From a virus: DNA of 64,000 bases. Location: positions 74,679 through 138,678 of IMG/VR virus record IMGVR_UViG_3300043540_000091; one strand, 5' to 3'. Positions 15,592 through 16,861 of the stretch are shown here, piece after piece. The position numbers were made by a program, and so were the translations under genes. Under the pieces are notes generated by a model. That model had not been told where the DNA came from. It worked only from the letters and a program-made list of their open reading frames with translations, and did not search any database. The first letter of the stretch is position 1. Each line of letters opens with the position of its first letter.

Positions 15592-15870
15592 ATGGCATGG
15601 TTCACGTACCGGTGTCCGGAACACGGAGAGTTCAAGATGTCGCTCCAGAAGAGGGAGCAGACACAGGCATGTCCGACGTGCGGATCTCGGTCAGTACCAA
15701 TGTTAAAAACCAGCGGAAGCGTGTCCATCGTCGAACGGCTGGACAACGGTATCATGGGCCGTGCAGTGGAACGTCTACACAACATCGAAGAGATCATGAA
15801 CGATCGCGCGGACAAGCATTCAAAAGAGTTCGAGCAACGGAACGGCGGAGCAGGTGAAGACAATGATTGA
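15592..15870 (+). CDS. FmdB-like zinc-ribbon protein
   Basis: FTYRCPEHG...CPTCGS. Confidence 0.7.
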   Translation: MAWFTYRCPEHGEFKMSLQKREQTQACPTCGSRSVPMLKTSGSVSIVERLDNGIMGRAVERLHNIEEIMNDRADKHSKEFEQRNGGAGEDND

Positions 15871-16861
15871 CGTCAGCTTCGGCATCCCTGGCTACATGCA
15901 AGAATACTGGGAACGCCACGACCATGACGACTTCACTCATATCGGCTTGTCCAGCGGCATGCGGTACAACTTCGCCAAGACCAACCCGTACCTCGAGTCC
16001 TCTATCCTGCAGCTTCACGACGATGTCGGAAACGCTGAGGTTGAAGGATACAGAGTCGTCATCGGTAACGGAGCTTCTCAGATCGTGTCTGCGGTAGCGT
16101 ACGCAGCCCAGAAGATCAACCTGAATGAGATCCTTCTCGAAGCGCCGTACTGGGGTAGACTCCAGTTCCTGCTGAACTCCGGAGTACACTCGGCTGGCTT
16201 CATGGGACCGGCAGTCAAATCTCATAAAGCGCTAATCACCTCTCCGTGGTTCAAGTTCGCGGTCAGCCCGAACAATCCGGATGGTCGACTTCAAGAGCCG
16301 GAAGGTTCACTGCCGCACTTCCTGAGCGTGGTCGACATGTGCTACTACTGGCCTCAGTACGTTGACAAGGTGGAGAAGAAGGCTCACGACGTGATGATCT
16401 TCGGACTATCGAAGGCTACCGGCCATGCCGGTACTCGGCTTGGATGGGCTCTCGTAAAGGATCAGAACTTCGCGAGCTTGATGCGTGAATATATCGAAGA
16501 ATCTACCTGCGGAGTGTCGAACGACGCGCAGGAACGCGCCAGGACAATACTGTGGCACTCCCATCGCACGAATCATGCTCCGTTTCAGTTTGCAAAGACT
16601 GAACTCGCCGAGCGTTGGGAAGCGTTCGCTCAGGCTGCCAAGCAGTCGGGTAAGGTCAATGTACTCAACGCGAACGGAATGTTCGCCTGGTGCGAGTATA
16701 CCGGCGGCGGGGAGTCGGCTGCAGACGAGATGCTGAAGGTGTACGGACTTAAGGTCATGCCTGGAACCTACTTCGGATCGTCACCTTCCAAGTTCAGGGT
16801 AAATCTTGGCTGTGACAAGGAAATCTTTAACAAGATGCTTGGAGCACTCCGTGGAAGCTAG
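15854..16861 (+). CDS. PLP-dependent enzyme, TAA1/TAR-alliinase (Alliinase_C) family
   Basis: QEYW, [45 protein letters not shown] (PLP lysine), [10 protein letters not shown]. Confidence 0.85.
   Translation: [335 protein letters not shown]

What the first reader, a model, noticed from the sequence alone, without database searches (positions are those of the whole stretch)
15854..16861. Plant-type TAA1/alliinase-family PLP enzyme in a phage
Seen: collinear motifs [18 protein letters not shown]...[55 protein letters not shown] and [10 protein letters not shown]. The gene overlaps both neighbours, so it is integrated in the operon. Known (recalled, not searched): this motif series characterises plant tryptophan aminotransferases TAA1/TAR (indole-3-pyruvate auxin pathway) and alliinase C-S lyases, a family with sparse non-plant distribution and debated origin. 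Inference: the phage may carry an aromatic aminotransferase or C-S lyase, and could be a reservoir for this family. No YUCCA-like gene is visible, so auxin synthesis is not claimed.
Basis: partly seen in the sequence, partly recalled or inferred. Interest (0 to 1): 0.85.

Follow-up and report, generated by a model that had tools for sequence, protein, structure and literature searches.

The report
Phage-borne TAA1/alliinase-family PLP enzyme
An uncultured large bacteriophage related to Myxococcus phage Mx1 carries an intact vitamin-B6 enzyme of the family that plants use to start auxin synthesis and garlic uses to make allicin; it belongs to a big, undescribed, mostly phage-borne branch of that family, and what it acts on is still unknown.

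Summary
ORF 15854/15863..16861 (+) encodes a 335/332-aa protein. It matches Pfam Alliinase_C end to end (1.5e-54, 185.8 bits; Aminotran_1_2 only 57 bits). Its only solved relatives by sequence are Arabidopsis TAA1 (4e-34) and garlic alliinase (2e-25). Its AlphaFold model (pLDDT 96.8) hits TAA1 and alliinase 12 orders of magnitude better than any ordinary aminotransferase. All PLP and alpha-carboxylate ligands are conserved.

The host DNA is a real phage: a 138.7-kb IMG/VR record with portal, GroEL, DnaB, SbcC, Pol III alpha and RecA. Its nearest cultured relative is Myxococcus phage Mx1. Mx1 has the same GroEL, Zn-ribbon, SbcC order but lacks this gene, so it is an accessory gene.

Relatives occur on 21 IMG/VR contigs from several unrelated phage lineages and on 46 metagenome contigs. 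They occur in 0 of 50,697 deposited phage records and on only 2 small MAG contigs among 185,579 prokaryote species genomes.

The protein lies outside the eukaryotic clade. Whether eukaryotes acquired the family from this radiation is unresolved (AU p = 0.098). No YUCCA, decarboxylase or thymidylate-synthase partner is present. Most likely it is an amino-acid aminotransferase or C-S lyase auxiliary metabolic gene.

This scan has already noted the same family on other DNA (31 notes, at least 23 genomes).

The parts
15863..16861 (+). Alliinase_C/TAA1-family PLP enzyme gene. It encodes 332 aa from ATG 15863, or 335 aa from GTG 15854. In 335-aa numbering the PLP lysine is K187, with D161, N141, Y164, R195 and R315 as the other ligands.
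15592..15870 (+). 92-aa Zn-ribbon protein directly upstream; its stop codon overlaps the enzyme gene. It is conserved upstream of the enzyme gene in this phage lineage only and is also present in Mx1.
   Evidence: Pfam Zn_ribbon_8 7.2e-6, below its cut-off. jackhmmer found it in the window and 7 loci among 105 upstream small ORFs. The Mx1 homologue matches at E 1e-10.
15327..15590 (+). 87-aa ORF between GroEL and the Zn-ribbon gene; no family match.
13559..15340 (+). Phage GroEL chaperonin, the upstream anchor of the conserved gene order.
   Evidence: Cpn60_TCP1 9.6e-40; phrog_5725 3.6e-80; 40.3% identical to Mx1 GroEL
16806..18548 (+). SbcC-like recombination nuclease ATPase, the downstream anchor. 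The likely start is GTG 16851, which overlaps the enzyme gene's end by 11 nt.
   Evidence: phrog_77 7.9e-41; SMC_N and AAA_23; sequence read
12216..13529 (+). DnaB-like replicative helicase, the first gene of the plus-strand replication and recombination module that holds the enzyme gene.
   Evidence: phrog_19 4.3e-32; DnaB_C

Best explanation
The gene is an intact accessory (auxiliary metabolic) gene of an Mx1-like tailed phage. It lies in the early replication and recombination module and its ends overlap both neighbouring genes, so it is probably co-translated with them.

It encodes a compact fold-type I PLP enzyme of the TAA1/alliinase family. The protein keeps the Schiff-base lysine (K187 in SKATGHAG), the aspartate that holds the pyridine nitrogen (D161), the O3' ligands (N141, Y164), the phosphate arginine (R195), an aromatic residue that stacks on the ring (W100) and the arginine that binds a substrate alpha-carboxylate (R315). 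It therefore acts on a free alpha-amino acid.

The most likely chemistry is the one shown for TAA1: reversible transfer of the amino group from an aromatic or other amino acid to pyruvate, giving alanine. During infection this would shift the host's amino-acid and keto-acid pools.

Shown here: family membership, an intact catalytic set, phage location, accessory status, and purifying selection in relatives. Inferred: the reaction type, the substrate and the benefit to the phage.
For: - Family: Pfam Alliinase_C 1.5e-54, full length. PDB sequence hits are TAA1 4.2e-34 and alliinase 2.1e-25 only.
- Fold: AF2 pLDDT 96.8, pTM 0.94. Foldseek gives TAA1 7.9e-28 (TMq 0.86-0.87) and alliinase 2.5e-25; the next hit is prephenate aminotransferase at 4.2e-16 (TMq 0.72).
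- Catalytic set: the alignment puts K187 on TAA1 K217 and alliinase K251, D161 on D225, N141 on N207, Y164 on Y228, R195 on R259 and W100 on Y165. K187, D161, N141, Y164 and R315 are invariant in 81 short-form sequences, and R195 is at least 90% conserved. PLP-Lys217 as the internal aldimine of TAA1, and TAA1's use of Phe, Tyr and Ala, come from passages of PMC9231625.
- Phage context.
- Same position in related phages spanning GC 0.31-0.45: L002-L005 and L012; L025, L035, L037 and L044.
- Accessory status: Mx1 has GroEL, a 93-aa ORF and the nuclease with nothing between, and 0 Alliinase_C matches in its whole genome, whereas 4 of 4 related virus records have one.
- Selection: the only unsaturated pair (L006/L008, dS 0.166) gives dN/dS 0.105.
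Against: - No activity has been measured for any short-form member, and no paper on them was found.
- The family also contains a true beta-lyase (alliinase), and nothing in the sequence tells transamination from beta-elimination.
- The gene is equally related to both eukaryotic branches.
- No metabolic partner gene was found in the phage, so the pathway context is empty.
- dN/dS could not be measured for the window's own gene: its closest relative with DNA in hand is 44% identical and dS is saturated.
Confidence: 0.5

Rival explanations
1. It is a C-S beta-lyase like alliinase. It would cleave cysteine-derived substrates (cystine, cystathionine, S-substituted cysteines or their sulfoxides) to pyruvate, ammonia and a reactive sulfur species. 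That would serve sulfur or methionine supply, or produce a reactive sulfur compound during infection.
For: Garlic alliinase is the second-best sequence and fold hit. All the residues that alliinase uses for PLP and carboxylate binding are conserved. The phage protein is not inside the TAA clade, so TAA-type chemistry is not inherited by descent.
Against: The alliinase EGF-like N-terminal domain is absent: only Alliinase_C and Aminotran_1_2 are hit. Scores are higher to TAA1 than to alliinase, 121 against 93 bits. Cysteine sulfoxides are not known general bacterial metabolites (own knowledge). No sulfur-metabolism partner was seen among the window genes scanned.
Confidence: 0.25
2. It is a specialised PLP enzyme acting on a non-standard amino-acid moiety, for example a step in DNA-base or nucleotide hypermodification, cell-wall precursor chemistry or a small-molecule counter-defence. 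This would explain why it lies among DNA-metabolism genes in several phage lineages.
For: In the window it lies between GroEL/Zn-ribbon and SbcC. In another lineage it lies between a class II ribonucleotide reductase and a PD-(D/E)XK nuclease with a primase-helicase nearby. In L007 and L028 a 2OG-Fe(II) oxygenase is nearby.
Against: No thymidylate-synthase/hydroxymethylase-type gene (PF00303, PF02511) is in the 138.7-kb record, while the control genomes gave hits. No neighbour is shared across lineages: the Zn-ribbon ORF is confined to one lineage. In L016/L019 the gene sits next to terminase and portal, and in L020 next to tail genes. There are no PADLOC hits. The conserved alpha-carboxylate arginine R315 points to a free amino acid.
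Confidence: 0.15
3. It is an ordinary bacterial HisC/AspC-type aminotransferase, a piece of host DNA, or an assembly chimera.
For: There is a weak Aminotran_1_2 match over the C-terminal half (57 bits) and weak NCBIfam hits. Two MAG contigs carry relatives.
Against: The family is separated from 4 ordinary class I/II enzymes by a 100* branch. No NCBIfam model is near its cut-off. The same gene order appears on many independent contigs. An independent assembly spans the junctions. GC content is unremarkable. The two MAG contigs are only 8.8 and 4.0 kb.
Confidence: 0.02

Closest known systems
Arabidopsis TAA1 / TAR1 / TAR2, L-tryptophan:pyruvate aminotransferase (PDB 3bwn, 3bwo; Pfam PF04864)
   Same: Best sequence hit in the PDB (4.2e-34) and best fold hit (7.9e-28, TMq 0.86-0.87). 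Shared motifs are LHxxVGNA, GxGxxQ, PNNPDG, DxxYYWPQY and SKxTGHAGxRxGW, with the PLP lysine aligned (K187 = K217). Neither protein has an EGF-like domain.
   Different: Only about 26% (structural alignment) to 33% identity to plant enzymes. It is shorter, at 332-335 aa against about 390 aa or more. It lies outside the eukaryotic clade. It is encoded by a phage with no YUCCA partner. Trp-to-IPyA activity is untested.
Garlic alliinase (alliin lyase, EC 4.4.1.4; PDB 1lk9, 2hor, 2hox) and the plant TAR3/TAR4 branch
   Same: Same Pfam family. Second-best sequence hit (2.1e-25) and fold hit (2.5e-25, TMq 0.86). K251, D225, N207, Y228, R259 and Y165 all have conserved counterparts.
   Different: No EGF-like N-terminal domain. 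It is about 100 residues shorter. It is not in the alliinase clade. Lyase activity is untested.
Ordinary class I/II aminotransferases (AspC, HisC, prephenate and kynurenine aminotransferases; Pfam PF00155)
   Same: Same fold type I PLP architecture and general catalytic residues (ranks 15 onward).
   Different: Foldseek E about 4e-16 and TMq 0.67-0.75 against 1e-26 to 1e-28 and 0.86-0.87. They form a separate clade at 100*. NCBIfam scores are at most 38 bits against cut-offs of 276-617.
Myxococcus phage Mx1 (OR576727.2), the nearest cultured phage
   Same: GroEL is 40.3% identical and Pol III alpha 34.2%. The local order is the same: GroEL, a small Zn-ribbon-type ORF, then the SbcC-like nuclease.
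   Different: Mx1 has no gene between the small ORF and the nuclease, and no Alliinase_C match anywhere in its 169.6 kb.

Membership tests
Alliinase_C / TAA1-alliinase family (Pfam PF04864) | Full-length match to the family profile above the curated cut-off, and better than the general Aminotran_1_2 profile | tested here: met
   185.8 bits against a cut-off of 22, profile positions 1-357 of 363; Aminotran_1_2 57 bits over residues 166-329 only
Alliinase_C / TAA1-alliinase family (Pfam PF04864) | PLP Schiff-base lysine in the SKxTGHxG motif, plus the Asp, Asn, Tyr and Arg ligands of PLP and the C-terminal Arg for the alpha-carboxylate | tested here: met
   K187, D161, N141, Y164, R195 and R315 align with TAA1 K217 and alliinase K251, D225, N207, Y228 and R259. 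They are invariant or at least 90% conserved in 81 sequences. The role of alliinase R401 is recalled, not taken from a call.
Alliinase_C / TAA1-alliinase family (Pfam PF04864) | The three-dimensional fold is closest to solved family members | tested here: met
   AF2 pLDDT 96.8. Foldseek ranks 1-12 are all TAA1 or alliinase; the next class is 12 orders of magnitude weaker.
TAA1/TAR tryptophan aminotransferase orthologue (EC 2.6.1.99, auxin pathway) | Falls inside the plant/algal TAA clade | tested here: not met
   The window protein lies in a 19-row short-form clade (95*), separate from the 22-row eukaryotic and long-form clade (96*)
TAA1/TAR tryptophan aminotransferase orthologue (EC 2.6.1.99, auxin pathway) | A partner enzyme converts indole-3-pyruvate onward (YUCCA-type FMO, or a TPP-dependent IPyA decarboxylase) | tested here: not met
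   PF00743, PF13738 and PF02776 each gave 0 matches in the 138.7-kb record, which is 86% complete by CheckV, while the controls gave hits. A host-encoded partner cannot be excluded.
TAA1/TAR tryptophan aminotransferase orthologue (EC 2.6.1.99, auxin pathway) | Trp + pyruvate to indole-3-pyruvate + Ala activity | not testable with these tools
   Needs an enzyme assay
Alliinase (EC 4.4.1.4) | N-terminal EGF-like domain (Alliinase_EGF) before the catalytic domain | tested here: not met
   The Pfam scan lists only Alliinase_C and Aminotran_1_2, and the Alliinase_C match starts at residue 5. That Alliinase_EGF marks the alliinase/TAR3-4 branch comes from passages of PMC10015382.
Alliinase (EC 4.4.1.4) | S-alk(en)yl-cysteine sulfoxide lyase activity | not testable with these tools
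   Needs an enzyme assay
Ordinary bacterial HisC/AspC-type class I/II aminotransferase | Reaches the curated cut-off of a named NCBIfam equivalog, or clusters with such enzymes | tested here: not met
   The best NCBIfam score is 38.2 bits against a cut-off of 350, and hisC scores 29.4 against 276.55. The outgroup split is 100*.
Phage auxiliary metabolic (accessory) gene | Sits in a bona fide phage genome, is dispensable in a close relative, and is kept under purifying selection | tested here: met
   Phage genes on both sides. Absent from Mx1 at the same site. dN/dS 0.105 in the one unsaturated pair, from another lineage; it is not measurable for the window copy itself.

The most novel reading that the evidence does not exclude
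The compact phage-borne enzymes are the stock from which eukaryotes acquired the TAA/alliinase family. On this reading, the first enzyme of plant auxin synthesis would descend from a gene carried by bacteriophages or by their hosts' mobile gene pool. In the rooted tree the eukaryotic clade (96*) is nested among short-form clades and is sister (92) to a pair of short forms (P0059 and the L023 MAG contig). The phage proteins are also far closer to TAA1 (E 4e-34) than the bacterial and archaeal homologues used as outgroups in the published debate (E 2e-8 and 9e-7, 25% identity; PMC4754409, whole text read). Against this, the deepest branches are long-branch rows (P0045, L012), the backbone is an unresolved polytomy, and a tree with all short forms as one clade is not rejected (delta lnL 26.1, p-AU 0.098).
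Probability: 0.15. Interest if true: 0.85.

Novelty: new variant of a known kind. Interest (0 to 1): 0.6.

Why it matters
A 2022 review calls the tryptophan-aminotransferase clade 'found almost exclusively in plants' (PMC9309667, passages). The debate on the origin of auxin synthesis used prokaryotic outgroups only about 25% identical to TAA1 (PMC4754409).

This work shows a large, diverse, intact and selected branch of the same family on bacteriophage genomes. Members lie on 21 IMG/VR contigs from several phage lineages, and 114 clusters match at E <= 1e-30. The branch is almost absent from cellular prokaryote genomes and absent from deposited phage records.

It matters in two ways. It supplies much closer outgroups for rooting the TAA/alliinase tree. 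It also poses a new question in phage biology: why do unrelated phages carry a compact amino-acid PLP enzyme with no partner gene? Mx1, a cultured relative with an empty site at the exact position, offers a practical test bed.

Tried and rejected
1. Conserved functional partner. The Zn-ribbon ORF upstream looked like a candidate. jackhmmer over 105 small upstream ORFs found it only in the window and 7 loci (L002, L003, L004, L005, L012, L025, L026). All are in the Mx1-like lineage. It was not found in syntenic L035. I rejected it as a family-wide partner. In my running commentary I first guessed a higher number of loci; 7 is the count from the call.

2. DNA hypermodification. No PF00303 or PF02511 gene is present, and neighbours are not consistent across lineages. 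I kept this only as a minor rival.

3. Auxin pathway. No FMO, Pyr_redox_3 or TPP enzyme is present.

4. Defence or counter-defence. There were 0 PADLOC hits for 6 proteins.

5. Host DNA or chimera. Rejected.

6. Habitat and expression. Only one run holds the stretch, labelled hot springs metagenome. It may be the source sample, and no RNA holder is listed. Neither point is used as evidence.

7. dN/dS. 10 of the 11 pairs tried have dS above 1 or saturated, so only L006/L008 is usable.

8. treekit AU test. The mixture-model AU test did not finish in two 300-s calls (88, 89). I replaced it with IQ-TREE LG+F+G4 -fast, a simpler model.

9. Context of the named 'bacterial' members. L025, whose copy is 55% identical to P0027 (the NCBI protein labelled 'bacterium'), is a phage contig of the window's lineage. 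The neighbours of L023 (Bdellovibrionales MAG, 8.8 kb) are a beta-helix protein and a DUF4423/HTH protein, which does not decide between phage and cell.

10. Plasmids. Only 2 weak generic aminotransferase hits, 24-26% identity.

11. Papers. PMC3246337 and PMC2442466 (TAA1 inhibitor and structure papers) are not held, so TAA1 substrate-pocket residues could not be compared. The roles of alliinase residues beyond what the alignment shows are recalled. Supplementary files were not consulted; the supplementary alignment of PMC4754409 on 'core residues' might bear on the pocket comparison.

12. The claim that phage members are not in print rests on searches of the held library only.
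Full report
OBSERVATION. The ORF listing gives ORF 15854..16861 on the plus strand, 335 aa with a GTG start.

The DNA read shows how the gene meets its neighbours.
- The upstream 92-aa Zn-ribbon gene ends at TGA 15868-15870.
- An in-frame ATG lies at 15863, giving an 8-nt overlap. This is the start implied by the 332-aa product on record, P0001.
- GTG 15854 is the alternative start. A GGAG box lies at 15847-15850. 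I leave the start open.
- The gene ends at TAG 16859-16861.
- The SbcC-like gene can start at GTG 16851, with GGAG 16841-16844 and a 6-nt spacer, giving an 11-nt overlap. It could start as early as TTG 16806.

GC content around it (0.55-0.56) is within the window's range.

WHAT THE PROTEIN IS.
- Pfam gives Alliinase_C at 1.5e-54 and 185.8 bits over profile positions 1-357 of 363. The general Aminotran_1_2 profile reaches only 57 bits over the C-terminal half.
- NCBIfam lists 18 weak families and none is near its cut-off. The best is 38.2 bits against 350, and hisC is 29.4 against 276.55.
- PHROGs has only a weak partial hit to phrog_5879 of unknown function.
- Against all PDB chain sequences, only three distinct sequences pass E <= 1e-3. 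These are Arabidopsis TAA1 (3bwn/3bwo, 4.2e-34) and two garlic alliinase entries (2.1e-25).

In those printed alignments the PLP lysine of TAA1 (K217) and of alliinase (K251) aligns with K187 of the phage protein. PMC9231625 passages name PLP-Lys217 as the internal aldimine. Alliinase D225, N207, Y228, R259 and Y165 align with D161, N141, Y164, R195 and W100.

In an 81-sequence alignment of short forms, K187, D161, N141, Y164 and R315 are invariant, and R195 is at least 90% conserved. That R315 corresponds to the carboxylate-binding arginine of alliinase is my recollection plus its invariance, not a call.

AlphaFold2 on that alignment gives pLDDT 96.8 and pTM 0.94. Foldseek against the PDB ranks TAA1 chains first (7.9e-28 to 6.6e-26, TMq 0.86-0.87), then alliinase 1lk9 (2.5e-25, TMq 0.86). 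Ordinary aminotransferases begin only at 4.2e-16 with TMq 0.72-0.75. BFVD holds no TAA-type viral structure: its best hit is a giant-virus diaminopimelate aminotransferase at 14% identity.

THE GENOME. The window is bases 74679-138678 of a 138,678-base IMG/VR virus record, which CheckV estimates at 86% complete. Around the gene lie:
- a portal protein (1210-3387, minus strand);
- a ResIII helicase;
- a DnaB-like helicase (12216-13529);
- GroEL (13559-15340);
- an SbcC-like ATPase;
- a RuvC-like resolvase (19573-20208);
- an SbcD-like exonuclease (21724-23028);
- Pol III alpha (23938-27615);
- an SSB;
- RecA (30193-31275);
- a Toprim primase;
- a dNMP kinase;
- peptide deformylase (36656-37132);
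- an HNH endonuclease.

The nearest deposited phage is Myxococcus phage Mx1 (169.6 kb), with GroEL 40.3% identical and Pol III alpha 34.2%.

The only public run that holds the stretch may be the source sample. Its independently assembled 16,740-base contig spans 14800-17800 with no joint and one base difference, T>C at 16185, which would read V111A.

ACCESSORY STATUS. Mx1 has GroEL, then a 93-aa hypothetical protein, then the 'recombination endonuclease', with only 8 bases between the last two. The 93-aa protein is homologous to the window's Zn-ribbon protein (E 1e-10). A six-frame Alliinase_C search finds 0 matches in Mx1 but exactly one in each of 4 related IMG/VR records. The gene is therefore present or absent at a fixed site in this phage lineage.

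DISTRIBUTION.
- The search for homologous proteins returned 45 hits among 1215 candidates. Metagenomic proteins are 35-64% identical, several on contigs of about 170 kb, and plant TARs are 28-33% identical.
- The exhaustive search of 1.84 billion cluster representatives found 883 clusters at E <= 1e-3, 510 at <= 1e-10 and 114 at <= 1e-30. The top hits are mostly 300-370 aa, and forms of about 390-590 aa appear further down the list.
- Of 10 long-form clusters looked up, 5 carry organism names: a green alga, a liverwort and three flowering-plant genera. The other 5 are metagenomic, one of them with only a generic aminotransferase label.
- Of 10 short-form clusters looked up, all are metagenomic. 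IMG labels 5 'L-tryptophan--pyruvate aminotransferase', and one has a Bdellovibrionales MAG member.
- Pattern-seeded scans confirmed 21 loci of 67 candidate stretches in IMG/VR and 46 of 221 in metagenome contigs.
- In one genome for each of 185,579 prokaryote species, the scans confirmed 0 of 41 stretches and then 2 of 7. Both are small MAG contigs, of 8.8 kb and 4.0 kb.
- These scans see only sequences that carry the family's conserved motifs.
- tblastn of the window protein and of a divergent member (L010) against 50,697 deposited phage records found nothing. The tool notes that records of or very near the window's genome may be left out.
- Plasmids gave 2 weak generic hits.

CONTEXTS. By comparison with the window phage's proteins, 5 of the 21 viral loci share the helicase, GroEL, small ORF, enzyme, SbcC order. 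They are L002/L003/L004 (whose ORFs in the stretch they share have identical coordinates and identical matches), L005 and L012. Their GC is 0.33-0.42. Identities to the window are GroEL 55-65%, the enzyme 34-44% and SbcC 29-47%.

Four metagenome loci (L025, L035, L037, L044; GC 0.31-0.43) share this order too. L026 carries the Zn-ribbon ORF.

The other viral loci belong to different phages.
- One group (L006, L008-L011, L017, L018, L022) places the gene between a class II ribonucleotide reductase and a PD-(D/E)XK nuclease, with an AAA ATPase and a primase-DnaB helicase nearby. I annotated this on L010. I inferred it for the others from the layout and cross-matches.
- L016 and L019 place it between a metallophosphatase and terminase/portal.
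- L020 places it next to tail-type genes.
- L007 has an integrase and a 2OG-Fe(II) oxygenase nearby.

No neighbour is shared by all lineages.

PHYLOGENY. I built a tree of 84 rows: the window, 5 syntenic phage loci, 11 other viral loci, 3 MAG-labelled rows, 36 metagenomic short forms, 15 metagenomic long forms, 9 named plant or algal proteins, and 4 ordinary class I/II aminotransferases from the two MAGs as outgroup. The method was IQ-TREE quick with LG+C20+F+G4 PMSF on 338 columns. I chose the rows by hand from the larger hit lists. Partial sequences (L024, L037, L044, L046 and others) and near-duplicates were left out.

- The family is separated from the outgroup at 100*.
- P0045 and L012 (end branch 1.54) branch first.
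- The rest forms an unresolved polytomy of five clades.
- The window groups with P0002 (98*) inside a 19-row clade (95*) that holds 4 of the 6 syntenic phage rows.
- L025 groups with P0027 and P0050 (100*).
- All named eukaryotes fall in one 22-row clade (96*) with metagenomic long forms. That clade is sister at 92 to P0059 plus the L023 MAG contig.
- Under LG+F+G4 a tree that forces all 57 short-form rows into one clade is 26.1 lnL units worse but is not rejected (p-AU 0.098).

The phage protein is therefore a family member outside the eukaryotic clade, and the direction of any transfer is open.

SELECTION. Of the 11 locus pairs tried, only L006/L008 is unsaturated (dS 0.166), and its dN/dS is 0.105. 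The window's own copy has no relative close enough, with DNA in hand, to measure.

PARTNERS. The whole 138.7-kb record gave 0 matches for FMO-like, Pyr_redox_3, TPP_enzyme_N, Thymidylat_synt and Thy1, while the control genomes gave hits in each search. PADLOC gave nothing for the enzyme and five neighbours.

LITERATURE. Six full-text searches found no paper on phage or short-form members.
- PMC4754409 (whole text read) shows that the prokaryotic TAA1 homologues used in the origin debate had E 2e-8 and 9e-7 at 25% identity.
- PMC10015382 (passages) describes the two plant clades and single algal orthologues.
- PMC9309667 (passages) says the clade is 'found almost exclusively in plants'.
- PMC9231625 (passages) gives TAA1's PLP-Lys217 and its use of Phe, Tyr and Ala.
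- PMC3597751 (one passage) lists Alliinase_C in a marine-metagenome domain cluster.

EARLIER NOTES OF THIS SCAN. After I had recorded my own reading, a word search showed 31 notes in at least 23 genomes on the same family. In the 8 shown, follow-up agents reached the same conclusions: an intact compact PLP enzyme, a large and mostly phage-borne branch, and an unknown substrate. These are not independent evidence. What this report adds is the Mx1-like lineage, the empty site in cultured Mx1, the AU test and the partner-gene searches on this genome.

VERDICT. The gene is a real, intact accessory gene of an Mx1-like phage. It encodes a TAA1/alliinase-family PLP enzyme that acts on an alpha-amino acid. 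I put an aminotransferase at about 0.5, a C-S lyase at about 0.25, other specialised PLP chemistry at about 0.15, and an artefact at about 0.02. It is a new, phage-borne variant of a known enzyme family.

Noticed in passing
window 36656-37132 (+): The phage encodes a peptide deformylase (phrog_2890, 8e-33). Together with its own GroEL (13559-15340), this suggests the phage invests in protein maturation and folding.
   Followed up: no
L016:11225-14353 (+): A P22-type portal gene of another enzyme-carrying phage is interrupted by an intein, with Hint and LAGLIDADG homing-endonuclease domains.
   Followed up: no
L007:8875-9726 and L028:302-1144: Two otherwise different contigs that carry the enzyme also carry a 2OG-Fe(II) oxygenase. 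The two copies are 57% identical to each other. In L007 it lies about 1.3 kb from the enzyme gene and in L028 about 7 kb. This could be a partner in that sub-lineage.
   Followed up: partly
L060:1209-3851 and L062:48-2780: Marine metagenome contigs hold ORFs of 880-910 aa that score 360-368 bits against the short-form profile, well above the 158-249 bits of the other forms longer than 400 aa. They may be fused or duplicated forms of the family, probably eukaryotic.
   Followed up: no
window 15800-15862, upstream of the start: Several close homologues are annotated with a conserved N-terminal 'MTEQTS...' extension. The window's frame reads '...GTAEQVKT' there without an ATG. The conserved letters coincide with the GGAG ribosome-binding region, so the extension is probably a gene-calling artefact rather than a real peptide.
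   Followed up: partly
window 16185: The independent assembly of the one run holding this DNA reads C instead of T at this position. This is the second position of codon 111 and would read V111A, in a variable loop where homologues often have Ala.
   Followed up: partly
L066:237-2186 (-) and L061: Two members of the eukaryote-side clade lie beside an ankyrin-repeat protein (L066) and beside a GH32 glycosidase and a cyclic phosphodiesterase (L061). What organism these contigs come from is unclear.
   Followed up: no
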